From positions 209,211 to 273,210 of the forward strand of contig CAVZKR010000005.1 of the NCBI GenBank assembly GCA_963775935.1: 64,000 bases of DNA. Reading direction: 5' to 3'. Shown here piece after piece: positions 7,280 through 22,096 of the stretch (within the stretch, counting starts at the first letter, position 1; every line of letters starts with the position of its first letter). Both the position numbers and the translations under genes were made by a program. Below the pieces are notes generated by a model that was given only the letters and a program-made list of their open reading frames with translations, was not told the origin of the DNA and made no database searches. This stretch comes from an uncultured Chloroflexia bacterium (lineage in GTDB: Bacteria; Chloroflexota; Dehalococcoidia; GIF9; UBA5629).

Positions 7280-7280
7280 C

Positions 7281-7367
7281 GCCGAAGTGGCGGAATGGCA
7301 GACGCGCTACGTTCAGGGCGTAGTATCCGTACAGGATGTGTGGGTTCAAATCCCACCTTCGGCACCA
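7281..7367 (+). tRNA. tRNA-Leu (anticodon CAG), class II with long variable arm
   Basis: Acceptor GCCGAAG/CTTCGGC, anticodon loop TTCAGGG, long variable arm, T-loop TTCAAAT, CCA encoded. Confidence 0.9.
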
Positions 7368-7369
7368 AT

Positions 7370-7446
7370 GCGCCTGTAGCTCAGTGGATTAGAGCGCGGC
7401 CCTGCGGAGGCTGAGGTCGTGGGTTCAAATCCCACCAGGCGTGCCA
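7370..7446 (+). tRNA. tRNA-Arg (anticodon read as GCG)
   Basis: Acceptor GCGCCTG/CAGGCGT, anticodon stem CGGCC/GGCTG, loop CTGCGGA, T-loop TTCAAAT, CCA encoded. The anticodon register was assigned by hand. Confidence 0.8.
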
Positions 7447-7450
7447 TGAG

Positions 7451-7523
7451 GGGCGATTAGCTCAGCGGTTAGAGCGCCTGTCTTACACACAGGAGGTCAC
7501 AGGTCCAAATCCTGTATCGCCCA
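7451..7523 (+). tRNA. tRNA-Val (anticodon TAC), integration target
   Basis: Acceptor GGGCGAT/ATCGCCC, anticodon loop CTTACAC, unusual T-loop TCCAAAT. No CCA follows (A-TTT). Its 3' 47 nt recur at 17352 and 22052. Confidence 0.85.
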
Positions 7524-7667
7524 TTTCGTATCTATTTTATGCCTGACCTCCATAAATTCCCATAAAACCGACCTCCTGAGTCGTCACATCAGCTAGGTCA
7601 CACCAGGCTCACACTAACATCACGCTCTGGTCACGGTTTTTTGACCAGAGAAAAAGGAGCCGGCACA

Positions 7668-8375
7668 ATGGAAGTGACCCGAAAGAACAGGCGGTGGCAA
7701 GAAGTGAGCACGAACTCTTTAGATTCTGCTACAACTGGCAAAGGACTTTGAGCTCTATAATAAGACTGAGGGCAAAAGCCCCAAAACAATCCTGTGGTAC
7801 AATCAATCACTGTTGCAGTTTTATCGTTTTCTACTTTTTAGCGAAAAATCTTCAAAACTGGCCGATATTGGGGAAAGCGATGTCCGGGAATTTATCCTGT
7901 ACCTCCAGGAAAAGACCCGATGGCAGGATAATCCCTATATGGTGAAGAAACAAGGTAATCTGCAGCTATCAGTATCCAAACATATATACGTGCGGTCAGA
8001 GCTTTCTTCAACTGGCTCCATAAGCAAGGCTATACAAGCGAAAACAGGCTGACCAATGTACGGCCCCCAAAAGCCCAATCCAAAATCGTACAAATACTGA
8101 CCCAAGATGAAATAAAAACTATCTTCTCTTACCTTGACGTTACTACCTACGCTGGATGCAGGAACCAGGCAATTCTATTGCTTCTCCTGGTCACAGGCAT
8201 CCGATGCAGCGAATTGGTAAATCTTAAGGTGAATGATGTCAATATCGATGATGGTTGTCTAAAAGTCATGGGCAAAGGCGGCAAAGAACGTATGGTACCC
8301 TTTGGCATAATTGTTCAAAGAGCTTTGTCGCGTTACGTTCCGCATGTTAGAAATAATGCACTACCATCTATTACT
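7668..8375 (+). pseudogene. Tyrosine recombinase/integrase, N-terminal two-thirds, frameshifted and truncated
   Basis: SAM-like N-domain (AKDFELYNKTEGKSPKTILWYNQSLLQFYRFL), then ...TGIRCSELVNLKVNDVNIDDGCLKVMGKGGKERMVPF. Frame changes near 7725 and 7962. Homology ends about 8370, just before the dctM stop. Confidence 0.8.
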
Positions 8376-8384
8376 GTCGAAAGG

Positions 8385-9686
8385 TTAACGTACCATAGAA
8401 GGCAGCCAAGTGGCTAGAATAGGAAAGCATATTAGCAGGGCTATACATACTATCATAGCCGCCAAAAAGGGCATAACCCCAGCAAAAATTTTTTGCAATG
8501 GAACCTCTGGAACTATAGCTTTCATTACATAAACATTAACCCCTACAGGAGGTGTAAGTACGCCTGTTTCGGTTAAGATGTTTACCATTAATCCAAACCA
8601 TACGGGATCAAATCCGAGGTCGAAGAATATCGGAATGACTATCGGGACACTAAGAACTAAAATACCCATGGCATCGACAAAACAACCGGAAATGATATAA
8701 AACGCAGCTAAGAGCAAGAAGGTACCAATTGGAGGTATAGGAAGTTGTTTTCCCCATTCCACGAATGTCAGTGACAGAGTAGACATACTCAGGAAATGGC
8801 CAAAAATTACCGAGCCAGTTATCAGGAAAAAAATCATGCAGGATACTTTCAACCCTTCCTTAGTCGTGCTCCAGAGTCCTTCCCAGGTAATTCTTCTGTG
8901 GATGAACCCAATTAACAGAGCTCCTATGCATCCGGCACCCCCAGCTTGAGTGGGAGTGAACAAACCGACGAATAAACCTCCGATAACAAATATAAATAAA
9001 CCAGCTACCTCTAGCAATGCTGGCAGTACCTTAAACTTCTCTTTCCAACTGGTTGGGGGGCCGGGTGGTCCTAAATTGGGATTGCGCCAGCATATAATGT
9101 ATACTGTAAGCGCCATTAGGATAGCCAGTATTATTCCAGGAATTAAACCAGATATTAGCATTTGTGCGATAGATTGTTCAGCCAACAATGCATAGATCAC
9201 TAAACCAGTGCTGGGCGGTATCATAGGTCCCAGTGTGCCGGCGCCAGCGATACAACCTGTAGCCAGTTGATCATCATAATTATGTTTTTTCATTTCCGGA
9301 TAAGCTATTTTGCCTACGGTAGCCACAGTGGCTGCACTGGAGCCACAGATGGCAGCAAAAAGGGCGCAGGTAAAGACAGTAGCCACACTCAATCCTCCAC
9401 GTATAGAACCTACCCAAATATAAGCAATTTTAAAAATGTTGGTCGTCATTCCGGACAATTCAGCATAAAAACCCATCATCACGAATGTGAGTACAGCACT
9501 TAAGGGGTAAGAAGTGAATTTTTCGAATATATCCATAGCCACAAACCCCATTGCTGCTTGTGGCGATACCACCAGTGACATGCCAACAAAACCAGCCAGC
9601 AATATCGAAAAAGCCACTGGCATTCCAATAATTAATCCTATAAGAAGAGCGGCAACAGCTATGATTCCTTCCAAGGATGGGATCAT
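8385..9686 (-). CDS. dctM: TRAP transporter large permease (DctM family)
   Basis: About 12 predicted TM helices. Start chosen at the ATG in an ATGA overlap with the dctQ stop (9683-9686). Part of a DctPQM gene order. Confidence 0.85.
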   Translation of the reverse strand: MIPSLEGIIAVAALLIGLIIGMPVAFSILLAGFVGMSLVVSPQAAMGFVAMDIFEKFTSYPLSAVLTFVMMGFYAELSGMTTNIFKIAYIWVGSIRGGLSVATVFTCALFAAICGSSAATVATVGKIAYPEMKKHNYDDQLATGCIAGAGTLGPMIPPSTGLVIYALLAEQSIAQMLISGLIPGIILAILMALTVYIICWRNPNLGPPGPPTSWKEKFKVLPALLEVAGLFIFVIGGLFVGLFTPTQAGGAGCIGALLIGFIHRRITWEGLWSTTKEGLKVSCMIFFLITGSVIFGHFLSMSTLSLTFVEWGKQLPIPPIGTFLLLAAFYIISGCFVDAMGILVLSVPIVIPIFFDLGFDPVWFGLMVNILTETGVLTPPVGVNVYVMKAIVPEVPLQKIFAGVMPFLAAMIVCIALLICFPILATWLPSMVR

Positions 9687-10177
9687 CTCTTCTTGACCTC
9701 CCGAGTTGATTGGAGAAACTCTATGATGAATACAAAACAAGCAGGTACCAGCATCAGAGCTGTGAGATAAATAATGATGTGAATTGGGAGATGGAGATCA
9801 GAGGTATATTGACCTGTTTTCTGGATTTCCAGGCCATTGGCAAAAAGCTGCCAAATAATCCATATAAAGAGACAAGTCAAAATCAACGAAATAAAGCTGT
9901 TTAGTGTCGCTTGAATATTCCTGGGAAATCGTTGAGTGAGAATATCCACCCTGATATGCTTTTGGCTTAGCTGGGTTACTGCTGTTGCAGAAGCAACAAT
10001 TATAGCTTGCGAAAGACCGGCAATTTCTATCGAACCGCGTATAGGCCAGTTAAAGCATTTCGCAAAAATAATATCAATAAAAGTCATGGCCAGAATAGCC
10101 AGGAGTAATAGTACGCCTAAACCCGTAAACCAGTTGCTCCATCGTCGGACAATCCGCTCAAATTTTCCCAGCATCAT
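9683..10177 (-). CDS. dctQ: TRAP transporter small permease (DctQ family)
   Basis: 164 aa with 4 TM helices, positioned between the DctP and DctM genes. Confidence 0.8.
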   Translation of the reverse strand: MMLGKFERIVRRWSNWFTGLGVLLLLAILAMTFIDIIFAKCFNWPIRGSIEIAGLSQAIIVASATAVTQLSQKHIRVDILTQRFPRNIQATLNSFISLILTCLFIWIIWQLFANGLEIQKTGQYTSDLHLPIHIIIYLTALMLVPACFVFIIEFLQSTREVKKR

Positions 10178-10346
10178 TCTCCCTTGATCTCAGGTTTACC
10201 ACTACTTTGCGGTTTCTAATTGCATTCGCAGGATCTCAATACTGGGGCAAGTTTGCCCCAGTATCTTTTTATATTGTTACTCTTTCTGCAAGCTTGAATA
10301 TTAGTGATACTTTTAAACTGACCTTCTTTACCCGGCTACCGATACA

Positions 10347-11453
10347 TCATCGAATCTCTTTTGGCCCATTCGGTGATTTGATACCTTTCTCTATCTGCTT
10401 TTTCAGCCAATAGTCTCTTCTCTCTTTAATATAATTAATCCAGCTTTGGGCCTCCTTTTCAGAAAAACCACGGCCCACCATGTCTTTAATATATGTATCC
10501 ACGATGGGATAAGCTGCTTTTTGCCATCTTGCTTCTTCATCGGCTGATAGGTCAATAATTTCTACCCCTTTTTCTTTACAGTACTGATATCCTACTATAT
10601 CTTGATCGTTCCAGGCTATAGCCGCTTTCTCCACCCATTCAATGGCAACTTGATTAAAAATCGATTTTATATCTCCAGGCAGTTTATTCCAGGCAGACAC
10701 ATTCATAATCAAGACAAAATCAGCGCCAGTAAGTGCCGTCCAGCTCGTGGTAAAGTATTTAGTCGCATCAGCGACCCTAAATGTCTTGGCTGCTTCAAAA
10801 GGGTAAATTGCACCGTCAAGTACGCCCTTAGATAGAGCGTCATAGGTTTCTCCGGAAGGCGTAGCCATAGTTTCAGCGCCTAGCAATTTACCTATGTCAG
10901 CCTCTCGCCCCTGGCATCTCAATTTCTTGCCCTTTAAATCTTCCATTTTCCGGACAGGTGTTTTACTATAAATACCCGTGGGAGGATTAGCACTAATGAA
11001 AAGTACGTGGAATGAATCCCACTCTTTCGGTTTGAATTTGGCATAAAAGTCATTTGCCACGTGGGTTGATACCCAGGCGCCTGGACGACCGAGGACTACC
11101 GTATCTACTTCCATCACAGGGAAGCGCCCCGGAGTGTACGACAGACCCATATAACCAATATCGGCTAGTCCTTTTGATACACCATCAACCATGCTGCCTG
11201 GTTCTAACAACGCTCCACCTGGGAAGAAATTAAACTTTACTCTGCCGTTGGAGCGCTTTTCAATCTCTTTATCGAAGCCATCTATGTTCTGAGACATAGC
11301 ACTTGGCCCAGGGAAATGAACGGCTACCCTAAGCTCTATCGGTGTTGCTGATGAAGGTGATGCCGGCGCTCCGCAACCTGCAAGCATGATTACGACGATC
11401 AATCCTACTAGCAATAATGTGAAAACCGTTTTTTTCATAAATCCCACTTTCAT
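10347..11453 (-). CDS. dctP: TRAP transporter substrate-binding protein (DctP family), lipoprotein-type signal
   Basis: N-terminal signal with LAGC lipobox, DctP-like length and context. GGAAGGAG RBS upstream of the ATG at 11453. Confidence 0.8.
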   Translation of the reverse strand: MKVGFMKKTVFTLLLVGLIVVIMLAGCGAPASPSSATPIELRVAVHFPGPSAMSQNIDGFDKEIEKRSNGRVKFNFFPGGALLEPGSMVDGVSKGLADIGYMGLSYTPGRFPVMEVDTVVLGRPGAWVSTHVANDFYAKFKPKEWDSFHVLFISANPPTGIYSKTPVRKMEDLKGKKLRCQGREADIGKLLGAETMATPSGETYDALSKGVLDGAIYPFEAAKTFRVADATKYFTTSWTALTGADFVLIMNVSAWNKLPGDIKSIFNQVAIEWVEKAAIAWNDQDIVGYQYCKEKGVEIIDLSADEEARWQKAAYPIVDTYIKDMVGRGFSEKEAQSWINYIKERRDYWLKKQIEKGIKSPNGPKEIR

Positions 11454-11609
11454 TTTTTACTACGCTCCTTCCTTTATTTATATCTGACCTTAGTCAACTA
11501 TTTTTTTACATACTCACCCCCCATAATAAATTTATTTATACGATTTATTCAATTAGTCTTTTAATCCATTTTAGTCTATCAGAAATTCAGAACCAGCACA
11601 CTATTATAA

Positions 11610-12440
11610 TCAGCTTCGAGATAATATAATATCGCCCAAATATATATCTAATTTTGTTCGAACCTTTATCTTTCTTGTCTGGTAACCTAAATGTTCTATT
11701 TGGACTATATATTCAGTCTCTTTTGGCAATCCTTCAAATTCAAAATCGCCATAATTGTTTGTGGAAGTAGTTCTCTTTTCGTTTGAACCTGTTACAGTCA
11801 CAGCTACATTTTCGGCGCATTTGTCTGTATCTCCAAAAATTACGCTCCCGGCAATGAATCTTTTTGGTAGACCGATATATTTAACTCGCTCCTTGAGTCC
11901 ATACTCAGGATGTAGTATTTCTACTTTATCTTTTTCAAGCCGCTTTGAGATTTCACTATTCTGATCACTGAGATCCCCAAAAATCAGAGCATTATTTGGG
12001 CATACTTCAACGCACCTCGGTTCTTGCCACCCTTTATCAAGCAAGTGAGCGCAGAGTGTACATTTTTGAGGCAACATTTTTTGCTCATTCCAGTAAATTA
12101 CCTGATAAGGACAAGTAGAAAGCAGGTCTTTCCGCCCAATCGCCTTCACTGGATCAATTATCACTATACCGTCAGGACGTTTATAAACAGCGTCATCTCC
12201 CGGTCGAATACATGGCGCATTGTCGCAGTGCATGCAGGGAATACTGGTATATGCAACTTTAACTTTAGGAAATGTCCCGCGTTCGTGTTCCAGTACCCTC
12301 ATCCAGAAATGCCCCGAATACGGTTGAGCAGCAGAATATGGCAAATAATCATTGCCGCAGAATTCATCACGGCAGGCTAAAAAGCAGGCATAACAGCCAT
12401 TACATCTGTTCTCATCTATCAGCAATCCATATTTCGCCAT
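11610..12440 (-). CDS. 4Fe-4S ferredoxin-type beta subunit of a DMSO-reductase-family enzyme, BthL-like with C-terminal CarboxypepD_reg-like beta-sandwich
   Basis: Motifs CNGCYACFLAC, CMHCDNAPC and CTLCAHLL...CVEVCP. The C-terminal GDFEFEGLPKETEYIVQIE tail resembles the recalled small subunit of Pelobacter pyrogallol transhydroxylase. Confidence 0.8.
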   Translation of the reverse strand: MAKYGLLIDENRCNGCYACFLACRDEFCGNDYLPYSAAQPYSGHFWMRVLEHERGTFPKVKVAYTSIPCMHCDNAPCIRPGDDAVYKRPDGIVIIDPVKAIGRKDLLSTCPYQVIYWNEQKMLPQKCTLCAHLLDKGWQEPRCVEVCPNNALIFGDLSDQNSEISKRLEKDKVEILHPEYGLKERVKYIGLPKRFIAGSVIFGDTDKCAENVAVTVTGSNEKRTTSTNNYGDFEFEGLPKETEYIVQIEHLGYQTRKIKVRTKLDIYLGDIILSRS

Positions 12441-12443
12441 CGC

Positions 12444-14954
12444 TTATACATCCCACTTCTCGATTTCAATAAGGCACGAGTTGGGCGACATACCAGGAAC
12501 ATTTTTGGACATAAGGCGGTCAGAAGTAAGCATATTCATACAGCCTCCCCGGTCCATACTGTATGGTTTGCCGGGTTCTACTGGGTCGTATTTGCCAGAG
12601 GAGCAATAGCTGTGTATTACTCCCGGCCTTATTCTTTCTGTGACCAATGCTCCTCCCAGAACAGAAGCACGATCGTTATAAAGCCTGATAATATCTCCAG
12701 TTTTGATTTTTCTGGCTTCGGCATCTTTTGGATGAATTCTCACCGTCCAATAGTAATATCCGTTATTGGGGATGCGATGTCCTGGTATATGATTCACCCA
12801 GGAACCTTCCTTATCGAAATGACTGTGGAAGGTATACCTTGGATGTGGTGTAATCAGCTGGAGCGGATACTGCTTTGCCAGTTCAGATGTATGACCTTCC
12901 CAGCTTGGAATATACTGAGGCAGCGGTGCCCTTTCTTTATCATCTGGAGTAAATTTCTTCAAGCTTTCAGACACAAACTCTATTTTCCCGCTGAGTGTTC
13001 CCAGTTCATGGGCTTTGTCTGTACCTAACTTGGGATTGTTGCTATCGCTGGTATCACATGGCCTGCCCTCATAAAACCAGCGCAATGCTGGTGTCGATTT
13101 ATAGTTGTCCTGGAGCGGAATAACATAGTACGTTTTCTTCTTAAATTCTTCCCAGGATATATATTTCGGAAGGTCTGAAATATCAAAATATGCCTTGATC
13201 CAATCTTCTTCCGATTTTCCTCCATCAGAAAATTCATCCCAGACACCCAATCGCTTCGCCAGTTGAGAAAATATCCAGTAATCGGATTTCGATTCACCAA
13301 GGGGGTCGATGCATTTCTGCTCCAGAACGACAACCTGGTAATTGCAGCCACTACTATTCCATTTTACATAGCCTCCTGTTTCTCCAAATTCCGCTATATC
13401 ATTTCGTTCCAGGTTAGTGCAAGCAGGTAAAATGATATCGGCAAACCTGGTTTCGGTATGCCACCAGCAATCCTGGGTTACTACGATGTCCAGTTTCGGG
13501 CTCTGAAACATCTTTACCATCTTGTTCCCTTCAGTCATGGTCCCCAGAGAAGGACCCCCGTACCGGTAGAGCATTTTGATCTCGGAGTAACCCGGCATGG
13601 GATAAACAAACTTTTTGAACTGCTGCTCTATCGATTGACCGCAGAATCCTTCTCCCATCCACTCAACCTTGTCCTTCAAGATGGAGTCCGGCAGCAATAT
13701 CCGGTAGAGGCGCTGTTCAACAGGATTGATAGCCTTCTTCTTGGCTGCTCGTGTGAAACTCATCATGCCATCAAGATCGGCATAACCAGGGAAAAATACA
13801 TTGCAATTATGCGGGGCACCATTCTCGTTTCCCCATAAATTAACCCCCGGTTTGCCCAAACCCTGCATAGCCTGGAGCAATACGCATAGCCTCGCCCATT
13901 CATGACCGTAAGCGGCTCTACATGCTCCACCCAACCCGCTGCCAACAAACATAGTCCTCTTCGATGCCCATTCCTGGGCAAGCGCCTCTATTGTTCGATG
14001 AGATATGCCTGTTATTTCTTCAGCCCATTTCGTTGTTTTCGGTCTTCCATCCTTTTTTCCGGTTACATAGTCACTGAACTCTTCAAACCCGATAGTCCGC
14101 TTTGATATATAGTCCTTATCGTAGGTATTTTCTTTGATCCAGACATAAGCAATCCCCAACGCCAACGCGGCATCGGTTCCGGGCCTCAACGGTATCCACT
14201 TATCAGCCATAATCGATGCCGTATAGTTGCAGAAAGGGTCAATAAATATCTGCTTCTTGCCCGATTCTTTGAGCCACTGCCACCAGATATTGGATTCCAT
14301 CCCACAGTAAGCTGCGCAAGTGGTATCGGGGTCAATCGCCCAATAAACTATCACCTCCGAGTTTTTTAAAGCATCTTCGAGGAGATCGTTCTGCTCTGAC
14401 ATTCCCAGCCTCCAATAAAACCCATAAACATGAGTGGCGCCCCAGTGCCAGCCTTCCCAGCTGTCCGGATTATGCAGAACTTCAGTAAAACCAATAGTAT
14501 TAAAAAATCTAAAATATCCGCCGAATCGGTAACCCACGATTCCCCAGTTATGATGGTCCTGATCGAGCGCTCCGATGGCCGAAGGCCCGTATTTTTCCCT
14601 GATCCTCTTCATTTCACTGGAGACGATATTGAGTGCCTCATCCCAGCTGATACGGACATAGCCCGATTTTCCTCTTGTTTCATGGTGTCTATTGCCAGCA
14701 GGATCAAAATCAACCCGTTTCATCGGGTAAAGAATTCTATCTTTAGAATATATCTGCGTCCTTGCTGCCATGATATAGCGGTTAACTTTGATCTTTTTTG
14801 GAGGTGAGAATTTTTTACCGTTAGACTCGATAGTCCAGGGTTTGAGGTCTTGTTTGTCGATTTGGAGGGGACGTATCCTGGTTATTTTACCGTTATTAAC
14901 GTAAACCGAAACGGGACCGCTAATGAGACAATTTGTGAAAATCTTTTCCCTCAC
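12444..14954 (-). CDS. Molybdopterin oxidoreductase alpha subunit, pyrogallol-phloroglucinol transhydroxylase (AthL)-like
   Basis: Motifs NPDSWEGWHWGATH, ILPACTNLERNDIAEF and a C-terminal IEIEKWDV match recalled AthL. No N-terminal Fe-S Cys motif. Start set at GTG 14954 (GGGGG RBS 6 nt upstream). The longer ORF to 15020 would overlap the predicted promoter. Confidence 0.8.
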   Translation of the reverse strand: MREKIFTNCLISGPVSVYVNNGKITRIRPLQIDKQDLKPWTIESNGKKFSPPKKIKVNRYIMAARTQIYSKDRILYPMKRVDFDPAGNRHHETRGKSGYVRISWDEALNIVSSEMKRIREKYGPSAIGALDQDHHNWGIVGYRFGGYFRFFNTIGFTEVLHNPDSWEGWHWGATHVYGFYWRLGMSEQNDLLEDALKNSEVIVYWAIDPDTTCAAYCGMESNIWWQWLKESGKKQIFIDPFCNYTASIMADKWIPLRPGTDAALALGIAYVWIKENTYDKDYISKRTIGFEEFSDYVTGKKDGRPKTTKWAEEITGISHRTIEALAQEWASKRTMFVGSGLGGACRAAYGHEWARLCVLLQAMQGLGKPGVNLWGNENGAPHNCNVFFPGYADLDGMMSFTRAAKKKAINPVEQRLYRILLPDSILKDKVEWMGEGFCGQSIEQQFKKFVYPMPGYSEIKMLYRYGGPSLGTMTEGNKMVKMFQSPKLDIVVTQDCWWHTETRFADIILPACTNLERNDIAEFGETGGYVKWNSSGCNYQVVVLEQKCIDPLGESKSDYWIFSQLAKRLGVWDEFSDGGKSEEDWIKAYFDISDLPKYISWEEFKKKTYYVIPLQDNYKSTPALRWFYEGRPCDTSDSNNPKLGTDKAHELGTLSGKIEFVSESLKKFTPDDKERAPLPQYIPSWEGHTSELAKQYPLQLITPHPRYTFHSHFDKEGSWVNHIPGHRIPNNGYYYWTVRIHPKDAEARKIKTGDIIRLYNDRASVLGGALVTERIRPGVIHSYCSSGKYDPVEPGKPYSMDRGGCMNMLTSDRLMSKNVPGMSPNSCLIEIEKWDV

Positions 14955-14991
14955 AAACAACCCCCAATTGATTATAATAAATATATTTTGC

Positions 14992-15020
14992 ATAATATCA
15001 ATAATTATTTTTATTGTCAA
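14992..15020 (-). promoter_or_regulatory. Sigma70-like promoter for the molybdoenzyme-TRAP operon
   Basis: On the minus strand: TTGACA (15020-15015), a 17-nt spacer, then TATTAT (14997-14992), about 35 nt upstream of the GTG start. Confidence 0.45.
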
Positions 15021-15062
15021 TATATGGAAATTACTATATAATAAAAACTTAATTTACCATTG

Positions 15063-15091
15063 TTGACTACGAATTTAGGCAGTCTTAAAAT
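15063..15091 (+). promoter_or_regulatory. Sigma70-like promoter for the divergent IclR gene (possibly leaderless mRNA)
   Basis: TTGACT (15063-15068), a 17-nt spacer, then TAAAAT (15086-15091). The ATG at 15099 lies only 7 nt downstream. Confidence 0.35.
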
Positions 15092-15098
15092 ATTATCC

Positions 15099-15842
15099 AT
15101 GTCTACAGTAAATAAAATCATCACAATTTTACAGATCTTTTTAGATTATAAAGAGCCAATCAGTATTGGTGAATTATCAAAATTATCCGGGCTGAAGGCC
15201 AGTACGTTATATAGGGTCATCTTGCCTCTGCGAAAAGAAGGATACATCAACCGTCAAACTAAGAGCAGCAAATACACTATTGGTCCCAAATTTTTAGAAT
15301 TTGGAAACCTTGCAAGAGGTCTATTAGATATTCAAAATATAGCAAAGCCCTATTTGGTAAAACTACATGATCTTATCGACGAAAGCATTCAAGTTGCTAC
15401 TTCTAATGGAGAAATAGCTATCTGTAAACTCATTTTACATGGTACTCAGAAGTTAAGAATTGTGATGGGTACAGATGCGGAATTTCCACTCTATTGTACT
15501 GGAATCGGGAAAATATTCTTATCCCACATGACAAACTTAGAACTTGAGAGATACTTTACAAAACAAGGCACCTTAAATAAATACACAGCTATTACAATTA
15601 TCAAGCTTCCGCGATTAAAAAAACACCTTTTAAAAATAAGAAGAAACGACGTTTCTATTGACCAGGAAGAATATATTACAGGAATCATAGAAATTGCGGT
15701 TCCTTTGAAGAATAGTGTTGGGCGAATTGTAGCGGCAATTGGAATTTTATTACCTTCTTCTCGAGCTACAAAAGAACGAATATCCGAATTGACCACCTTG
15801 CTTAAACAAACTGCGCTAGATATTTCTATGGTATTAAAGTAG
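15099..15842 (+). CDS. IclR family transcriptional regulator
   Basis: N-terminal wHTH (ILQIFLDYKEPISIGELSKLSGLKASTLYRVILPLRKEGYI) and a C-terminal IclR effector domain. Divergent from the molybdoenzyme operon. A TTG at 15060 is an alternative start. Confidence 0.8.
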   Translation: MSTVNKIITILQIFLDYKEPISIGELSKLSGLKASTLYRVILPLRKEGYINRQTKSSKYTIGPKFLEFGNLARGLLDIQNIAKPYLVKLHDLIDESIQVATSNGEIAICKLILHGTQKLRIVMGTDAEFPLYCTGIGKIFLSHMTNLELERYFTKQGTLNKYTAITIIKLPRLKKHLLKIRRNDVSIDQEEYITGIIEIAVPLKNSVGRIVAAIGILLPSSRATKERISELTTLLKQTALDISMVLK

Positions 15843-16023
15843 TGTATGTATGCAAGAGCCAATCGAAGACGTATATTCCCATTAATTTAAGTTCTATATT
15901 GTACGTTACTTTTAATAATAATTTGATTAAGAAGAGCTAAAACCTACCCAAAAATTTTATAGGCGTAATAGAGAATATTCTTATCATAATATAATTTATA
16001 TTATTTTGGAGGGCGGTTTTTAT

Positions 16024-17175
16024 ATGAACAATTACATTGGTATGCCAAAAGGTGCTTCCGTTGCTATCAGCGACTTACTTGATAATTGCGCAAAAATTCA
16101 GCAAGGTCAAGAAGTCTTATTGCTAGGCCATATCGATGGTCTTTATGGGGGGGATAACTTAATTGACGAGGTTGCTATATCTTGGATTCAAAATGCAATA
16201 CAAGCTCGTGGTGCTCATGCGTCAGTTCTTTGGATTGATGAACCTGGAAAAGCCCATGCGTGGCGGTTTCCTCCTATAGTTAAAGCTGCTATGTCAGCAT
16301 GCGATGTATTAATAAATCACTCTTTTAATATTACGACCGAAGAAATAATGGAATTTAGACAGTATATAAGGGAAAGGCGAATACCCATGGTGCGTAATTT
16401 TGCCACCACGGCACCTTTATTGTGTACTGCCTGGGCACAAACCCCCCATGAGCTTGTAAGTGAAATCCGTTACCAGTCGTCTCTACCAATTAAAGCAGGT
16501 TCAAAATGGCAATTGACTGATGAAAACGGCTCTCATCTAGAAGGCATTATCATGCCATTAGACGACCCCTTTTTCCCCACTTATTCATCGCGACGTGAAG
16601 AGGCAGGCTATTACCGACCGTGGCCAGAATGGGTGCATCCACCTATAAGAGTTTCTAATACTAATGGTATTTTTATTTTTAACAGTATGTTAAGCTGGTG
16701 GTCTCGCTATATTGGTATTTCACCTTTCTTCGAGAACTCTATTCGGTTAACCATTGATAATTGCCGTATTACTGATATAGCAGGCGGTGAAGAAGCTACG
16801 GCTTTACGGCAATTTTTGAATATGATGGCAGCGCGATTAGGTAATGGTGTTTATGATTTTAATGCTTTGCATTTTGGGGTCCATCCACAAGCAAATGTGG
16901 GAGCACACCAATGTCCGAATATTCTTTATCGGCGCTTAATAGAACATTCACATACATGTAATATTCATGTTCATATTGGTGCCCCACCGTCAAACCCAAA
17001 TTATCCATATTGGATGCATTGTACCGGGGACATACGAACAGCAACATTTCGTGTAGGTGACACAATTATACATGATCACGGGCATTTGACCGTTCTATCT
17101 CATCCATCTGTACTTGCTATCTCCAAAAAATATCCTGATAGGCCGGGATTGAATGCTGAACCCAGATCTTTCTGA
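16024..17175 (+). CDS. Hypothetical protein, possibly aminopeptidase-T (M29) fold / NicX-like
   Basis: GGAGGG RBS 10 nt upstream of the ATG at 16024. His-rich C-terminal region (EHSHTCNIHVHIG...HDHGH). The family guess comes from overall pattern only. Confidence 0.4.
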   Translation: MNNYIGMPKGASVAISDLLDNCAKIQQGQEVLLLGHIDGLYGGDNLIDEVAISWIQNAIQARGAHASVLWIDEPGKAHAWRFPPIVKAAMSACDVLINHSFNITTEEIMEFRQYIRERRIPMVRNFATTAPLLCTAWAQTPHELVSEIRYQSSLPIKAGSKWQLTDENGSHLEGIIMPLDDPFFPTYSSRREEAGYYRPWPEWVHPPIRVSNTNGIFIFNSMLSWWSRYIGISPFFENSIRLTIDNCRITDIAGGEEATALRQFLNMMAARLGNGVYDFNALHFGVHPQANVGAHQCPNILYRRLIEHSHTCNIHVHIGAPPSNPNYPYWMHCTGDIRTATFRVGDTIIHDHGHLTVLSHPSVLAISKKYPDRPGLNAEPRSF

Positions 17176-17351
17176 TTATAGTTCAAACAAGTGCTGCTAC
17201 CTTATATCACACTCACCTCACAGTTTTTGCAGTTTTTATGACTTTGAGCGAAAATATGACTTAGGTGAGCCTCAAGGTGACCTACTGAGCCGGTTCAGAA
17301 AGTGGTGCCGCTCAGATTCGAAAGAGGGGAGGTTTTAAGCTAAACCAAATA

Positions 17352-17398
17352 CCTGTCTTACACACAGGAGGTCACAGGTCCAAATCCTGTATCGCCCA
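17352..17398 (+). repeat. Direct repeat: exact copy of tRNA-Val(TAC) positions 27-73 (att-like), followed by CCA
   Basis: 47/47 identity to 7477-7523, read directly from the sequence. Confidence 0.9.
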
Positions 17399-17509
17399 CC
17401 AGTTTTTGAAGCTAATATCCGCCAATTAGAAATTTTACTAGGCTACTTTTTCACAAATAGCTAACGGATAGCTAACCAAGATTTCTGGTAAGCCCGTTTT
17501 CAGGTGTGG

Positions 17510-17790
17510 CTACAAAAACTCCGTCAAAGCGGGCAGCTCAGCTTCTTGAAGACCGGGTGCGACATGGCTATAGGTATCGAGAGTTATTTGGATACTGGAA
17601 TGTCCTACCTCTCTTGCACAATCTTTGGGTGTACTCCTTGTTTCAGCATTAATGACGCATGAGTATGCCTTGCATCGTGCAGCCGAATATACTTGAGCCC
17701 AGTTCTTTTAACCAGCTTGCCCCAAGCGTGTGTAATACTATCTGGTCGTAATGGAGTTCCGTCTAGGTGGCTAAATACAAGGTCATCATC
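17510..17790 (-). pseudogene. Tyrosine recombinase/integrase, C-terminal third (catalytic HxxR..H..Y region), one frameshift
   Basis: Translated by hand: KDDDLVFSHLDGTPLRPDSITHAWGKLVKRTGLKYIRLHDARHTHASLMLKQGVHPKIVQER / (frame shift) GHSSIQITLDTYSHVAPGLQEA... No N-terminal part is adjacent. Confidence 0.75.
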
Positions 17791-17825
17791 CTTTTATATT
17801 AGAATCAAATTGGAAATTTTGCTTT

Positions 17826-17852
17826 ATAGTTGGATGGGCTATATAAAGTACA
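17826..17852 (+). repeat. 27-nt direct repeat copy 1 (ATAGTTGGATGGGCTATATAAAGTACA)
   Basis: 26/27 identity with 21802-21828. Lies 36 nt from the truncation point of the integrase remnant. Confidence 0.8.
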
Positions 17853-18212
17853 CGAAGAAGTCATTTTAAGGCTTTTTACGGCTAGATTCTAGCCTAAGGT
17901 TGAAGTAGAATCTGATTCAGTTCCAACTAATCTCCAATCTGACATTAATTAGGATGATTTGGCCTATCGTTCCGGTGGGTCTTTTTATAAGAGTCTACCT
18001 GCTGAGAGCGTGCTTTTAAATTTACGTGTATTCCTAAATTGCGTCTTCAAAGCTGATGGACTATGGGGTTTCAAGAAATACTACCACCTGAGGCATGCAG
18101 AGTTAATGTTTCAAATTTCACATCCGCCGAAAATATGTAACTAATTTTATTCAATGCCAGCCATGCCAGAATCTACAAAGTAGTAGTTTTACTTTTACTC
18201 ACATTGTGACTT

Positions 18213-18521
18213 TTAAAGAGTTATTGTATCCACTGAGAGCTTTAAATTCTTAATGCGATAACGTATTTGGCCAGAGTACACGACTTCAAAAGCACCTGTT
18301 TTCCCCGGCTCTAATCGCCTTACGGTATCGGTCTCTGAGTCGATATAGTTACCACTGGCATCGTAGTAATCGGCTTTAACCACGGCAGTAAGGTTTGATT
18401 TCGAGCTGATATTTTTCACGGTTCCTGCGGCAAACATATCGCCAAACATACTTGTAGATATTTCGTAATTAATTATTTGTATGTCTCCATCGGGAGATGT
18501 TATCACTTGTGGTTTTTCCAT
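18213..18521 (-). CDS. Small beta-sandwich protein, FxLYD-domain-like
   Basis: 102 aa, 38 nt downstream of the AthL-like gene. The pattern GTVKNISSKSNLTAVVKADYYDASGNYI...LEPGKTGAFEV resembles FxLYD domains. Confidence 0.5.
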   Translation of the reverse strand: MEKPQVITSPDGDIQIINYEISTSMFGDMFAAGTVKNISSKSNLTAVVKADYYDASGNYIDSETDTVRRLEPGKTGAFEVVYSGQIRYRIKNLKLSVDTITL

Positions 18522-18559
18522 ATTTATCCTGCTTTACTACTCGAGATGAAGGCTTTCAA

Positions 18560-21235
18560 TTAACCGTCACTTCCTTCGACCCAGGCATTGAAGCATAGCC
18601 CATATGCCGGCTCGTATTCTCTGTTAAACGCCTCTGGATATTGCCTCTTCCACTCTTCCATCTGAGCCTCAGTGACCTTTTCCGCCTCAACCAGAAAGGC
18701 GCTGACTACCTGTCCCTGGGTATTTGGCGAAATCGTCTTTGCCGGAGTAATCAGATTAATCGCTCCCCCTCGGTCTAATTTGCCAGGGATAATCGGGTCA
18801 ACCCGTGACCCATGGTCCATATAGGCAACGCCGGGTCTTACTCGCTCAGTTACATAAGCACCTCCGAGGACAGCCCCTCTTTCGTTATAAACCTTGACTA
18901 TATCTCCGGTTTTCATCCCTCTTTTTGCCGCTTCCGAGGGATGAATCCACACAGGTTCATACTTGTATTCATCCCAGCCCTGGACTTTGCAGGTCTGGAT
19001 TTCCCTTAACCACGCAACATCATCAAGCTGGGCGTGCTCCCTCCACCGCCCATGGTTTGACACAATAAGCAAAGGATATTTCTTAGCCCTCAGATGTTCC
19101 CGGCTTTCCTGATGCGTCTTACCAAAGGGTATCCAGTGTGGAACCGGAGGTCTTTCTTCATCATTGGGAAAATGTTCAAGCAAATCTCTGGCTTCAAACT
19201 CTATTTTACCGGTCCAGGTTTTTAAAGGATGAGAGTCCGGGTCTTCATAAAACTCTATCATTCCAGGAGGGTCTTTCCCCCAGTTATCAGCCGGAGGGAC
19301 GCAGTAGTAACCTTTATTATTCAGCTCTTCCCAGCTAACAAGGTCTTGGGCATTGCTATTTTCAAACCCGAACTTCATCCAGTCTTGGACCGTCCTGCCC
19401 TCAGTATATGCTTCGTACAGGCCCAGCTTTTTAGCTACTTCGAGGACGGCTTCGTAATCGCTCTTGCTTTCTTCAACAGGCTCGATACACTTTCCCTCTA
19501 AATAGATAGACTGGCAGAAAGAGTCGGTGCCTATCATAATATCTTCCGTCTCGTATTTGGTGCAGATTGGTAGAATGATATCGGCATACAGGCAGTCATT
19601 TTCCAGCCAGGGGTGCTGAATGATTATAGTTTCTATTTTTGGACTTCTATAAGCCTCATCTATCCTATTGCCCTGATTCCAGCAGGTCTGCCAGCAAGGC
19701 GAGTCCGACCATATCAAATGTATCTCAGAGCAACCTTCAACGGGGTACCGGTACTCGTTAAACTGGTCTTCGGCGGGCATCATGTATGAACCGGTACTAT
19801 AGAATTTCATTGGTTTTTCGTGACTGGCTTCTAGGATAGCATCACAAATTCTAGTTTTGGGAATGAACTGCTTCGGGTACCATCTTAAAGAGGCCATCCT
19901 GGCTTCTTCCATACCACGGAATGCTGGGAAGGGATTTAGCTGTACTCTGCCTCTTGGCATTATTATATGGCTTGGCCGGTTAGTCCCCGGTTTCCCCAAC
20001 GCCTGCAAAGCGGAACACGCAATCTGCATTCTGACAGGTTCAGTCGAATATGGTCCTCTACAAAGGGGACCACTACTACCAGAGGCAAACGTAGTTACTT
20101 TTGACGCCCATTCCCTTGCCAGTGCTTTTATTGTCCTTGACGGTACACCGCAAAGTGGAGAAGCCCACGAGGGGGTCTTGGGAACTCCATCCTCCTGCCC
20201 CATCACATATTCCTTAAATTTTTCAAAACCGTGAGTATGTGTTACTACGTATTCCTTGTCGTACGTCTCCTCATTTATCCAGGTGTAGATAATAGCCAGC
20301 ATTAGAGCAGTATCAGTACCGGGGTATACTGGAATCCACTTATCGGCGTGGACTGCGGCGGAATAGTTCAAATCAGGAGAAATAAATATGTGTTTTATCC
20401 CTAACTCTGAGTAATAATAAGCCCACAGGCTGCTTTCCTGCCCTCCGCCCTGCCAGGAGGTGGTCTCCCAGTCAGCTCCCCAGTGCAGGAGCATCTCGGT
20501 ATGCTCGGCGATATCTTTGAAGGTATTGGCGGTATACTTGAATGTACCCATAGGAAGCATACCCCACATATGAGTGGCACCCCACTTCCACCCCTCCCAG
20601 CTATCCGGAGTTCTAATCTGCAGGGTGAACTGCCCCTTTTCCTTCCCGTGTCCTAGCAAGTCGAACATCCGGGTCTGACAGCCGTGAGGGGCATGCACGA
20701 TTTTGGTCTCTCCATGCCCATCACCTTGCAGAAATATCGCATAAGGACCGTATTTTGCACGCACCCTTTTTACTTCACTGGCGATTATGTCTGTGGCTTC
20801 GTCCCAGGTAATCCTCTTGAACTTGCTCCTTCCCCTGTTCTGTGGATTTCTTTCACCATCGGGGTCCCAATCGACTCTTTTCAGGGGGTATTTAATCCGG
20901 TTTGGCGAGTATATACGCTTCTTATAAGCCAGAACGTGAGGGTTAGGCAGGGTCCTCAGTTTTGACTCAAAAACTATTCCTCGTGCTTCGACCTTCCATT
21001 GTCCAATTTCCTGCGCTGAATATTTTTCGTCATAGTGAAACGGCCTTATGCGGACAATTTTACCGTTTTTAGCATCAACCCTGACTAGTCCCCCACCATG
21101 GCCAAAAGAGCAGAATGACATGCCTTTTAAGTATGATAGCTCTGGTCTTTCCTCTGGTGAAATCGGTTTTACCAAGTTGCTTTTCTCCGTATCATAGCGT
21201 ATAGAGTATACGCTTAAATTATTTTCGTCAATCAC
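18560..21235 (-). CDS. Molybdopterin oxidoreductase, second AthL-like paralogue (no adjacent beta subunit)
   Basis: Motifs TPDSWEGWKWGATHMWG and ILPICTKYETEDI, with the same family architecture as 12444-14954. GTG start at 21235. The internal ATG at 21121 would give an AthL-like N-terminus. Confidence 0.8.
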   Translation of the reverse strand: MIDENNLSVYSIRYDTEKSNLVKPISPEERPELSYLKGMSFCSFGHGGGLVRVDAKNGKIVRIRPFHYDEKYSAQEIGQWKVEARGIVFESKLRTLPNPHVLAYKKRIYSPNRIKYPLKRVDWDPDGERNPQNRGRSKFKRITWDEATDIIASEVKRVRAKYGPYAIFLQGDGHGETKIVHAPHGCQTRMFDLLGHGKEKGQFTLQIRTPDSWEGWKWGATHMWGMLPMGTFKYTANTFKDIAEHTEMLLHWGADWETTSWQGGGQESSLWAYYYSELGIKHIFISPDLNYSAAVHADKWIPVYPGTDTALMLAIIYTWINEETYDKEYVVTHTHGFEKFKEYVMGQEDGVPKTPSWASPLCGVPSRTIKALAREWASKVTTFASGSSGPLCRGPYSTEPVRMQIACSALQALGKPGTNRPSHIIMPRGRVQLNPFPAFRGMEEARMASLRWYPKQFIPKTRICDAILEASHEKPMKFYSTGSYMMPAEDQFNEYRYPVEGCSEIHLIWSDSPCWQTCWNQGNRIDEAYRSPKIETIIIQHPWLENDCLYADIILPICTKYETEDIMIGTDSFCQSIYLEGKCIEPVEESKSDYEAVLEVAKKLGLYEAYTEGRTVQDWMKFGFENSNAQDLVSWEELNNKGYYCVPPADNWGKDPPGMIEFYEDPDSHPLKTWTGKIEFEARDLLEHFPNDEERPPVPHWIPFGKTHQESREHLRAKKYPLLIVSNHGRWREHAQLDDVAWLREIQTCKVQGWDEYKYEPVWIHPSEAAKRGMKTGDIVKVYNERGAVLGGAYVTERVRPGVAYMDHGSRVDPIIPGKLDRGGAINLITPAKTISPNTQGQVVSAFLVEAEKVTEAQMEEWKRQYPEAFNREYEPAYGLCFNAWVEGSDG

Positions 21236-21461
21236 ATTACCGATTCTTATCCCTTACTTAGATAAGCCTCAATCACTCTTTCGTTCTCTCGAATCTCTTT
21301 GGGAGATGCTTCAGCAGGTTTTTGCCTGTGGAACAATGACGATATCCTACCGCAATGACTCATAACTGCGCTCATTGTGTATTTCTAACGTAAAGGATTC
21401 ACTAGCAACTGTATGTAGTCAGCGACAATGAGACAAGAAAACCTCAAAAATAACCGACATC

Positions 21462-21755
21462 TTAGAGGTCACTGCTCATATTTCTAGCTGTCTTATTATA
21501 GTCCTTTCTTGCCTGTAATGTTGTGACTTTCTCCTCCTTTCTTTTCTGCAGTATTTCAAGATGCTTACCAGTATAAACATCGTAGGGCATAACATTGCCC
21601 AATCCTTCATGGTACCGCCGATAGTTATAGTATTCAATAAAGGATTTGATCGCCTCTTTCAGTTCACTCGGCATCTGATATGGCACCTGATTGATTTCGC
21701 CTTTAAGTGTACGATGGTATCTTTCGATCTTACCATTAGTCTGAGGTATCAATAA
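21462..21755 (-). pseudogene. DDE (rve-type) transposase, C-terminal remnant (IS481/IS3-like)
   Basis: IPQTNGKIERYHRTLKGEI...YNYRRYHEGLGNVMPYDVY is the C-terminal part of an integrase-core domain. The upstream catalytic region is absent. Confidence 0.75.
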
Positions 21756-21801
21756 ATAATATAATGATTACTTAAGGTATGGCGGTTTGTAATTTGGATT
21801 A

Positions 21802-21828
21802 ATAGTTGGCTGGGCTATATAAAGTACA
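21802..21828 (+). repeat. 27-nt direct repeat copy 2 (ATAGTTGGCTGGGCTATATAAAGTACA)
   Basis: 26/27 identity with 17826-17852. Lies 47 nt from the truncation point of the transposase remnant. Confidence 0.8.
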
Positions 21829-22051
21829 TAAGAGATTCAAATCAAGATTATTCACGGTGGAGTTCTGATCCAAACATGACTAGGTGTATGTCTGCGTTTG
21901 TGAACTCAAACCAAAGCTAGAAAATAGCTAACGGACTAAATGAAACGGGTTATTTCTATTTGGTATTCTGCGAACAAAATAGGTTTTTTATCATTGATAC
22001 AAGCGTTCTACTTTGAACGTATAACTAGTCTTTGGGACACCAGCCTACAGA

Positions 22052-22096
22052 CTTACACACAGGAGGTCACAGGTCCAAATCCTGTATCGCCCACCA
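22052..22096 (+). repeat. Direct repeat: copy of tRNA-Val(TAC) positions 32-73 plus CCA (att-like)
   Basis: 42/42 identity to 7482-7523, followed by CCA as in copy 2. Confidence 0.9.

What the first reader, a model, noticed from the sequence alone, without database searches (positions are those of the whole stretch)
7451..22096. Three direct copies of the tRNA-Val(UAC) 3' part delimit two tandem integrated segments
The intact tRNA-Val(TAC) lies at 7451-7523.
- Nt 7477-7523 (start of the anticodon stem to the discriminator, 47 nt) recur exactly at 17352-17398.
- 42 nt of the same stretch recur at 22052-22093.
- All three copies are in the same orientation.
- Copies 2 and 3 are followed by CCA. 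The intact gene is followed by TTT.
This is the pattern expected when successive elements integrate into the tRNA 3' end, each supplying its own attP-borne 3' part and pushing older copies rightward. Segment 1 (about 9.8 kb) opens with a decayed tyrosine integrase. Segment 2 (about 4.7 kb) holds integrase and transposase remnants. Both carry an AthL-like molybdoenzyme as cargo.
Basis: partly seen in the sequence, partly recalled or inferred. Interest (0 to 1): 0.7.

Follow-up and report, generated by a model that had tools for sequence, protein, structure and literature searches.

The report
Two decayed islands at tRNA-Val
Two different mobile elements, both now crippled, inserted one after the other into the end of a valine tRNA gene of an uncultured Dehalococcoidia bacterium and left behind genes for breaking down plant polyphenols; this is a well-known way genomes grow, seen here in a little-studied group.

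Summary
tRNA-Val(UAC) lies at 7451-7523. Its last 47 nt recur exactly at 17352-17398 and its last 42 nt at 22052-22093, all on the + strand. Both partial copies are followed by CCA; the gene is followed by TTT.

Each segment opens, right after an att copy, with its own tyrosine-integrase pseudogene. The two integrases are unrelated families (about 30% identity), and each family sits beside tRNA genes elsewhere in Dehalococcoidia. An intact relative of the second integrase lies in a prophage inserted directly at tRNA-Val(UAC) of a host with the same tRNA-Arg/tRNA-Val pair. Each segment also has a short motif shared only by its own two ends, as expected of integrase arm sites.

Segment 1 carries a TRAP transporter, a two-subunit pyrogallol-phloroglucinol transhydroxylase homologue, an IclR regulator and an unknown enzyme. 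Segment 2 keeps a second, more divergent large subunit among gene debris.

The order of integration cannot be told, and no empty site was found because no close relatives were available. This is tandem accretion of decayed integrative elements, a known kind: a new member, of modest interest.

The parts
7207..7446 (+). tRNA-Val(CAC), tRNA-Leu(CAG) and tRNA-Arg(GCG), upstream members of the tRNA cluster
   Evidence: ARAGORN and Rfam. Leu and Arg encode CCA; Val(CAC) does not.
7451..7523 (+). Intact tRNA-Val(UAC). Its 3' 47 nt (7477-7523) is the leftmost att copy (attL of element 1). It no longer encodes CCA and is followed by TTT.
   Evidence: Rfam 73.1 bits
7524..7667 (+). Integrase-proximal arm of element 1, with spaced TCAC-type repeats including TAGGTCAC-N3-AGGCTCAC at 7594-7612. 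This block is conserved in related elements at tRNA-Arg(UCU).
   Evidence: Alignment A1 with L082 and L084; k-mer comparison
7668..8372 (+). int1: tyrosine-integrase pseudogene covering residues 1-235 of about 348. It has at least two frameshifts and internal stops, and its catalytic C-terminal third is deleted. It ends 13 nt before the DctM stop codon.
   Evidence: Pfam SAM-like domains plus Phage_integrase model positions 2-84; tblastn with P0001, P0002 and P0005; 82% identity to P0001
8385..11453 (-). TRAP transporter genes DctM (8385-9740), DctQ (9683-10177) and DctP (10347-11453)
   Evidence: Pfam; NCBIfam TRAP_S1
11610..15020 (-). Pyrogallol-phloroglucinol transhydroxylase homologue: small subunit (11610-12440) and large subunit AthL1 (12444-15020)
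   Evidence: PDB 4v4c_A at 882 bits over the full length and 4v4c_B at 213 bits; Pfam AhtL-like_1st, Fer4_11 and CarboxypepD_reg
15060..15842 (+). IclR-family regulator, divergent from the enzyme operon
   Evidence: Pfam; NCBIfam PcaR/PcaU subfamily, below cut-off
16006..17175 (+). 389-aa protein of unknown family, last gene of segment 1
   Evidence: No Pfam, NCBIfam or PDB match. Relatives at 90% identity or more exist in JGI and Logan.
17262..17291 (-). Distal arm of element 1: an inverted copy of the bipartite motif (TAGGTCAC-N4-AGGCTCAC at 17265-17284), unique in the window
   Evidence: 0 expected by chance
17352..17401 (+). att copy 2: 47 nt identical to 7477-7523, plus CCA. It is the junction between element 1 and element 2.
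   Evidence: Rfam scores 17330-17398 as a borderline pseudo-tRNA at 29.5 bits.
17402..17488 (+). Integrase-proximal arm of element 2, with AATAGCTAACGGA at 17456-17468 followed by a partial second copy. It is colinear with the spacer between integrase and tRNA-Val in L092 and L088.
   Evidence: alignment A2
17489..17799 (-). int2: C-terminal remnant of a second tyrosine integrase (about 95 of about 390 residues, HxxR and Tyr motifs present, one frameshift). Its 3' end faces att copy 2.
   Evidence: Pfam Phage_integrase model positions 89-169; tblastn; 94% identity to P0121; an intact 392-aa relative in L092
17810..17881 (+). D3a: a 72-nt repeat abutting the truncated 5' side of int2, about 75% identical to 21786-21857. 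Nature unknown.
18213..18521 (-). 102-aa FxLYD-domain protein downstream of AthL2
   Evidence: NCBIfam NF038353
18560..21235 (-). AthL2: a second, divergent AthL-like large subunit (38% identical to AthL1), with no adjacent small subunit
   Evidence: 4v4c_A at 453 bits
21247..21375 (-). C-terminal remnant of a branched-chain amino-acid ABC transporter ATPase
   Evidence: Pfam BCA_ABC_TP_C, E 1.8e-7
21462..21752 (-). C-terminal remnant of a DDE (rve_3) transposase
   Evidence: Pfam
21786..21857 (+). D3b: second copy of the 72-nt repeat, abutting the truncated 5' side of the transposase remnant
21923..21935 (+). Distal arm of element 2: the second and only other exact copy of AATAGCTAACGGA in the window
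22052..22096 (+). att copy 3: 42 nt identical to 7482-7523, plus CCA. It is the right end of the array; the sequence to its right is presumed to be the original chromosomal flank.

Best explanation
Two unrelated integrative elements, each with its own tyrosine integrase specific for the 3' end of tRNA-Val(UAC), inserted by site-specific recombination. They now lie in tandem as tRNA-Val | element 1 (9.8 kb) | att | element 2 (4.6 kb) | att | chromosome. Each integration rebuilt the tRNA from the element's attP copy and left a partial copy at the far end: 47 nt for element 1 and 42 nt plus CCA for element 2. Both elements then decayed. int1 lost its catalytic third and picked up frameshifts. int2 is reduced to its last 95 or so codons, and element 2 is littered with gene fragments. 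Neither can move by itself, but both keep their att sites and arm motifs, which makes them 'cis-mobilizable element' remnants. The intact reading frames that remain are a polyphenol-type catabolic set: a TRAP transporter, an AthL/BthL transhydroxylase homologue, IclR and an unknown enzyme in element 1, and a second AthL-like subunit in element 2. What is shown: the repeats, the two integrase remnants and where they sit, the arm motifs, and the tRNA association of both integrase families. What is inferred: that integration happened by attP x attB recombination, that the catabolic genes arrived as cargo, and that the elements are now immobile.
For: (1) There are three same-strand copies, with none expected by chance.

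(2) int1 (7668-8372, +) starts 145 nt after the tRNA. Its closest full-length relatives sit the same way after tRNA-Arg(UCU) (L082) or after a partial tRNA-Arg copy (L084). The arm between att and the integrase start is conserved among the three (A1).

(3) The 3' end of int2 (17489-17799, -) lies about 90 nt from att copy 2.
- An intact 392-aa relative in a prophage with portal, terminase and ParA genes lies 70 nt from tRNA-Val(UAC), which is itself preceded by a tRNA-Arg 3' end that matches the window's over the ~15-20 nt visible before the contig ends (L092).
- A 94%-identical remnant sits at tRNA-Val(UAC) in L088.
- Other relatives sit beside tRNA-Lys and tRNA-Arg.

(4) int1 and int2 are different proteins: 82% versus about 30% identity to the same references.

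(5) The arm motifs are element-specific.
- TAGGTCAC-N3/4-AGGCTCAC occurs at 7594-7612 (+) and 17265-17284 (-).
- AATAGCTAACGGA occurs at 17456 and 21923.
- Each motif occurs only at the two ends of its own segment.

(6) In the alignment with L092, similarity to the tRNA stops exactly at the left edge of att copy 2.

(7) Segment 1 has lower GC (0.42 against 0.45-0.49) and lower GC3 than most neighbouring genes.

(8) The tRNA/element 1 junction is reproduced in an independent assembly.
Against: No related genome with an empty or singly occupied site in the same chromosomal context was found. The nearest genomes share 71% or less amino-acid identity and no synteny around the site. Tetranucleotide composition of both segments falls within the range of the rest of the window. 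AthL-type enzymes are common in Chloroflexi (PMC3971608), so the cargo is not obviously foreign to the lineage. No excision product or circular junction could be looked for. Apart from int2 and its arm, segment 2 has no similarity to the related prophages, so what kind of element it was, and whether AthL2 came with it, is unknown. The truncation of int1 right at the end of the TRAP operon shows internal rearrangement, so the catabolic cluster could have entered the element after it integrated.
Confidence: 0.85

Rival explanations
1. One composite island integrated once. The two elements had already joined in tandem in another genome and moved as a unit, recombining only the outer att sites.
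For: Transfer of such composites is documented (PMC5704250, read). The final map would be identical to the one seen.
Against: Nothing speaks against it directly. It still requires two earlier integrations at tRNA-Val(UAC), so it changes where the accretion happened and not what the structure is.
Confidence: 0.1
2. There was a single island with a single integrase gene, broken by an inversion into an N-terminal part (7668-8372, +) and a C-terminal part (17489-17799, -). The middle tRNA fragment would then be incidental.
For: The two remnants are almost exactly complementary on the Pfam integrase model, covering positions 2-84 and 89-169 on opposite strands.
Against: The N part is 60-82% identical to a set of full-length integrases whose C parts are only 26-37% identical to the window's C part. 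The C part is 94% identical to a different family, which has its own intact members at tRNA-Val. Undoing the proposed inversion would also leave an inverted att copy just after the integrase gene.
Confidence: 0.02
3. The partial tRNA copies are leftovers of local duplication or decay of tRNA genes, or an assembly artefact, and have nothing to do with site-specific integration.
For: tRNA clusters do duplicate, and a second tRNA-Val lies 244 nt upstream. The contig comes from a metagenome-assembled genome.
Against: Both partial copies end exactly at the tRNA 3' end plus CCA and begin in the anticodon stem or loop, the classic att extent. Each is followed by an integrase remnant. The arm motifs pair the ends. 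The tRNA/element 1 junction is reproduced independently.
Confidence: 0.03

Closest known systems
Tandem accretion of integrative elements and cis-mobilizable elements (CIMEs): ICESt1-related elements of Streptococcus thermophilus, and IME_Sag2603_tRNAlys with a decayed ICE at tRNA-Lys in S. agalactiae (reviewed in PMC5704250)
   Same: Three att sites in direct orientation at the 3' end of a tRNA gene. Two elements whose tyrosine integrases are only distantly related (under about 35% identity) but share a target. Decayed elements that keep attL and attR.
   Different: Here both elements have lost their integrase, so no resident helper is present. No conjugation or mobilization genes are left. 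The host is an uncultured Dehalococcoidia bacterium and the cargo is a polyphenol-type catabolic set.
Dehalococcoides ssrA genomic islands (PMC3146451)
   Same: Same bacterial class. Several tandem islands are delimited by direct repeats of the 3' end of a small RNA gene. The integration module sits next to attL. Some islands lack an integration module and carry metabolic cargo.
   Different: Those islands use a serine recombinase (DsiB), target tmRNA (ssrA) with a 20-bp repeat, and carry reductive dehalogenase genes. This array uses tyrosine integrases, targets tRNA-Val(UAC) with 42-47-nt repeats, and carries AthL-like genes.
Temperate phages integrating at tRNA 3' ends with the integrase gene read towards attL (lambda-like layout), e.g. 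the prophage IMGVR_UViG_3300028156_000007 found here
   Same: int2 lies with its 3' end facing the tRNA copy, and the spacer and arm motif are colinear with that prophage.
   Different: Element 2 in the window keeps no phage genes.
Pyrogallol-phloroglucinol transhydroxylase of Pelobacter acidigallici (PDB 4v4c-4v4e) and its homologues in Chloroflexi genomes RBG-2 and RBG-1351 (PMC3971608)
   Same: AthL1 and the small subunit match both subunits over their full length. Having two copies per genome was also reported for RBG-2 and RBG-1351.
   Different: The substrate is untested. AthL2 is divergent and has no small subunit next to it. In the part of that paper read here, no location inside integrative elements was mentioned.

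Membership tests
tRNA-targeting integrative element (genomic island or prophage) with tyrosine integrase | Direct repeat of the tRNA 3' part at both ends of the insert | tested here: met
   47/47 and 42/42 nt, same strand, 0 expected by chance
tRNA-targeting integrative element (genomic island or prophage) with tyrosine integrase | Integrase gene next to an att site at the end of the element | tested here: met
   int1 lies 145 nt after the tRNA and int2 about 90 nt after att copy 2. Both are pseudogenes.
tRNA-targeting integrative element (genomic island or prophage) with tyrosine integrase | Members of the same integrase families lie at tRNA 3' ends in other genomes | tested here: met
   int1 family at tRNA-Arg(UCU). 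int2 family at tRNA-Val(UAC), Lys, Arg and Ser.
tRNA-targeting integrative element (genomic island or prophage) with tyrosine integrase | Absent from related genomes (empty attB) | tested here: inconclusive
   No genome closer than 71% amino-acid identity was available and there is no synteny at the site.
tRNA-targeting integrative element (genomic island or prophage) with tyrosine integrase | Composition differs from the host | tested here: inconclusive
   GC and GC3 are lower in segment 1, but the tetranucleotide distance is within the background.
tRNA-targeting integrative element (genomic island or prophage) with tyrosine integrase | Excision to a circular form with attP | not testable with these tools
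   No reads are available, and both integrases are inactivated.
Tandem accretion / cis-mobilizable element (CIME) | attL, an internal att and attR in direct orientation, bounding two adjacent elements | tested here: met
Tandem accretion / cis-mobilizable element (CIME) | The element has lost its recombination genes but keeps its att sites | tested here: met
   Truncated and frameshifted int1 and int2; att copies exact; arm motifs present
Tandem accretion / cis-mobilizable element (CIME) | Can be excised or mobilized by an integrase supplied in trans | not testable with these tools
   Needs an experiment
Pyrogallol-phloroglucinol transhydroxylase (AthL/BthL) | Full-length similarity of both subunits to the P. 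acidigallici enzyme, encoded side by side | tested here: met
   AthL1 882 bits and small subunit 213 bits. AthL2 scores 453 bits and has no partner subunit.
Pyrogallol-phloroglucinol transhydroxylase (AthL/BthL) | Hydroxyl-transfer activity on pyrogallol | not testable with these tools
   Biochemistry required
SSV-type integration (attP inside the integrase gene, which is split on integration) | The break point of the integrase gene coincides with the att site | tested here: not met
   The 3' end of int2, not its broken 5' end, faces the att copy. The break abuts repeat D3.

The most novel reading that the evidence does not exclude
The two integrase-less remnants may still be cis-mobilizable. 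A phage or island arriving with an int1- or int2-type integrase, such as the tRNA-Val prophage in L092, could excise and spread them. That would make tRNA-Val(UAC) a swap site through which Dehalococcoidia exchange polyphenol-degradation modules (AthL/BthL plus a TRAP transporter).
Probability: 0.12. Interest if true: 0.5.

Novelty: new member of a known kind. Interest (0 to 1): 0.3.

Why it matters
The structure itself is textbook, and its value is local. It shows that non-dehalogenating Dehalococcoidia, known mostly from metagenomes, build accessory regions at tRNA genes by the same tandem accretion seen at ssrA in Dehalococcoides. At least two integrase families, one of them phage-borne, compete for tRNA-Val(UAC). 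Genes resembling the pyrogallol-phloroglucinol transhydroxylase, which have been used to argue that sediment Chloroflexi degrade plant polyphenols, can lie inside such elements. That placement matters for inferring metabolism from patchy metagenome-assembled genomes.

Tried and rejected
1. One integrase split by an inversion. The Pfam model coordinates of the two remnants (2-84 and 89-169) suggested it, but separate comparison of the two halves with full-length homologues rejected it.

2. A conserved 'mini-integrase'. The best 120 database relatives of the int2 remnant were all ORFs of 106-165 aa. I dropped this idea for three reasons. Their N-terminal ends vary. The cases on long contigs are pseudogenes cut by insertion sequences or lying near contig ends. 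An exhaustive search finds many relatives of 370-405 aa, and an intact 392-aa gene exists.

3. SSV-type split integrase. Rejected because the att copy is at the wrong end of the fragment.

4. Search for an empty site.
- Exact tRNA patterns found nothing in the genome and JGI metagenome collections.
- Genomes found through the HI0933-like flank gene share 71% identity or less and have no tRNA cluster nearby.
- Homologues of the right-flank gene gave either a contig with only 34 nt upstream (L091) or distant genomes without synteny.

5. Repeat D3. No further copies were found in the window or in 166 loci.

6. Prophage remnants in segment 2 beyond int2. None were found.

7. Tetranucleotide test for foreign composition. 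Not significant.
Full report
**Observation.**
ARAGORN and Rfam place four tRNA genes at 7207-7523 on the + strand: Val(CAC), Leu(CAG), Arg(GCG) and Val(UAC). The last lies at 7451-7523. The 47 nt from the start of its anticodon stem to the discriminator (7477-7523) recur without mismatch at 17352-17398. They recur at 22047-22093 with three mismatches confined to the first five bases, so 22052-22093 is an exact 42-nt copy. All copies are on the + strand, and shuffles give no matches. The gene is followed by TTT and both partial copies by CCA. An independent Logan contig from run ERR10755944 is 99.97% identical to window 7494-14462. It ends 30 nt inside the repeat, which is what a k=31 assembly does at a repeat.

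**Segment 1 (7524-17351).**
- An integrase pseudogene runs from the ATG at 7668 to 8372 on the + strand. It has the N-terminal SAM-like domain and positions 2-84 of the Pfam catalytic-domain model, including the first catalytic Arg, and at least two frameshifts. The catalytic C-terminal third is missing.
- Homology to full-length relatives stops at residue 235 of 348, 13 nt before the stop codon of DctM. An internal deletion therefore fused the integrase stump to the end of a TRAP transporter operon.
- The remaining genes are DctM/Q/P (-), a small and a large subunit (-), an IclR regulator (+) and a 389-aa protein with no recognisable family.
- The two subunits match both chains of the Pelobacter acidigallici pyrogallol-phloroglucinol transhydroxylase over their full length, at 213 and 882 bits.

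**Segment 2 (17402-22051).**
- Six-frame translation shows, on the - strand at 17799-17489, the last 95 or so residues of a tyrosine integrase. The HxxR and LGH...Y motifs are present and there is one frameshift. Its 3' end points at att copy 2.
- The rest is an FxLYD-domain ORF, a second AthL-like large subunit, the C-terminal stump of a LivF/G-type ABC ATPase and the C-terminal stump of an rve_3 transposase. AthL2 is 38% identical to AthL1, scores 453 bits to 4v4c_A and has no small subunit beside it.
- A 72-nt repeat (D3, about 75% identical) abuts the broken 5' side of both int2 and the transposase stump. I could not identify it.

**Are the two integrase stumps one gene?**
They cover Pfam model positions 2-84 and 89-169 on opposite strands, which looked like one gene broken by an inversion. 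I tested this by searching with a joined sequence and then comparing each half separately with the hits. The N part is 82% identical to P0001 and 57-72% identical to dozens of full-length proteins. The C part is only 26-37% identical to the same proteins. Searched alone, the C part finds a different family at up to 94% identity. They are two different integrases, and the complementarity is coincidence.

**Do both families use tRNA genes?**
- *int1 family.* P0002 lies 160 nt downstream of tRNA-Arg(UCU) in the same orientation (L082). P0001 lies downstream of a partial tRNA-Arg(UCU) 3' fragment (L084). The region between att and the integrase start codon, with spaced GGTCAC/GCTCAC repeats, is conserved with window 7590-7667.
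- *int2 family on long contigs.* Fragments sit about 75 nt from tRNA-Arg(UCG) twice and from tRNA-Lys(UUU) once.
- *int2's closest relative.* P0121 (94% identity, L088) sits beside tRNA-Val(UAC)+CCA of another organism.
- *An intact relative.* The IMG/VR contig IMGVR_UViG_3300028156_000007 (L092/L126) carries an intact 392-aa integrase of this family, 70 nt from tRNA-Val(UAC). That tRNA is preceded by a tRNA-Arg 3' end matching the window's over the 15-20 nt visible before the contig ends. The contig also encodes portal, large and small terminase and a ParA-like protein, so it is a prophage.
- *Colinearity.* Window 17340-17830 is colinear with L092 and L088 through the integrase 3' end, the spacer and the tRNA 3' part. 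Similarity to the tRNA stops exactly at the left edge of att copy 2 (alignment A2).

In a host with the same tRNA pair, then, an int2-type element sits directly at tRNA-Val. In the window, segment 1 and an extra att copy lie in between.

**Do the two ends of each segment belong together?**
The bipartite motif TAGGTCAC-N3-AGGCTCAC at 7594-7612 (+) has one other copy in the window. It lies inverted at 17265-17284, 67 nt left of att copy 2. The 13-mer AATAGCTAACGGA occurs exactly twice in the window: 58 nt right of att copy 2 and about 120 nt left of att copy 3. For two flanks of 100-150 nt to share an exact 13-mer has a chance of about 2e-4 (my arithmetic). No such motifs are shared across the two segments. 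This is the pattern expected of integrase arm-type sites on the two arms of each element.

**Mechanism.**
Each element recombined its attP, which contains a copy of the tRNA 3' part, with the tRNA. The gene was rebuilt on the left and a partial copy was left on the right. Element 1's copy does not include CCA, so the gene now lacks an encoded CCA. Element 2's copy does include it. The original gene encoded CCA, as shown by att copy 3 and by the relatives in L088 and L092.

The order of arrival cannot be inferred. 'Element 2 first, then element 1 into the rebuilt tRNA' and 'element 1 first, then element 2 into its right-hand att' give the same map. Arrival as a ready-made composite is also possible. 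Both integrases are now dead, so the array is immobile unless an integrase is supplied in trans.

**What stayed inconclusive.**
- No close relative was available. The exact tRNA pattern is absent from the GTDB representatives and the JGI contigs.
- The nearest genomes are 71% identical or less in a conserved flank protein and have no tRNA cluster nearby.
- Homologues of the right-flank gene led to a contig too short to reach att copy 3 (L091) or to distant genomes without synteny.
- Segment 1 has GC 0.42 against 0.45-0.49 for the flanks, and low GC3, but the tetranucleotide distance is unremarkable.
- AthL-type enzymes are already known to be common, often in two copies, in sediment Chloroflexi (PMC3971608). 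The cargo is therefore not exotic for the lineage.

**Comparison with what is known.**
This is tandem accretion of site-specific integrative elements, with decay to integrase-less remnants that keep their att sites (CIMEs). The review PMC5704250 describes this, including the point that co-resident elements usually carry distantly related integrases with the same target. Within the same class, Dehalococcoides has tandem islands at ssrA bounded by 20-bp repeats, but those use a serine recombinase and carry dehalogenase genes (PMC3146451). I rate this a new member of a known kind.

**Verdict.**
Interest is 0.3, because the structure is ordinary. Its worth lies in documenting two tRNA-Val(UAC)-specific element families in uncultured Dehalococcoidia and in placing AthL-like polyphenol genes inside them.

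Noticed in passing
window 41206-48307 and 50045-50118: This is a second low-GC stretch (gene GC3 0.23-0.34). It holds an HNH-like protein, a DDE_Tnp_1 transposase, an HTH_3 regulator and a DUF4062 protein. About 1.7 kb beyond it lies a tRNA-like sequence (anticodon CAT, CCA encoded) that Rfam scores at only 33.8 bits and ARAGORN misses. Its 3' half looks intact and its 5' half degenerate, so it may be a partial att-type copy marking another island.
   Followed up: partly
window 17810-17881 and 21786-21857: A 72-nt direct repeat (D3, about 75% identical, core ATAGTTGGNTGGGCTATATAAAGTACA) lies right next to the truncated 5' side of both the int2 remnant and the rve_3 transposase remnant. It may be the end of an unidentified small mobile element. 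No further copies occur in the window or in 166 fetched loci.
   Followed up: partly
window 5376-6843 (-): The GlcD-like FAD oxidase just left of the tRNA cluster is split into two overlapping ORFs, with FAD_binding_4 in 5674-6843 and the end of FAD-oxidase_C in 5376-5699. This is either a frameshifted pseudogene or an indel error in the assembly.
   Followed up: no
L001 4777-6077 versus window 8385-9740: The Logan contig from ERR10755944 differs from the window by one indel that splits DctM into two ORFs (224 and 210 aa). The window has an intact 451-aa gene.
   Followed up: no
L084 560-604: The closest full-length relative of int1 (P0001) is preceded by a partial tRNA-Arg(UCU) fragment running from the anticodon loop to the 3' end, not by a whole tRNA gene. 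The fragment follows two small ORFs. This could be the inner junction of another tandem array, or an attP on a free element.
   Followed up: no
L085 4627-7813; L087 319-1812; L086 398-895: N-terminally truncated int2-type integrase ORFs lie about 75 nt from tRNA genes in several Dehalococcoidia contigs. In L085 the fragment and a tRNA-Arg are bracketed by two IS256-family transposase genes. In L085 and L087 the tRNA points the same way as the integrase fragment, unlike in the window and L086.
   Followed up: partly
L088 5243-5303: This ENA metagenome contig ends in Nextera adapter sequence (CTGTCTCTTATACACATCTCCGAGCCCACGAGAC), which cuts off the tRNA-Val gene. It is adapter contamination in a public assembly.
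   Followed up: no
window 17330-17398: Rfam scores att copy 2 plus the 22 nt to its left as a tRNA just above threshold (29.5 bits against a cut-off of 29). Annotation pipelines may call a pseudo-tRNA here.
   Followed up: no
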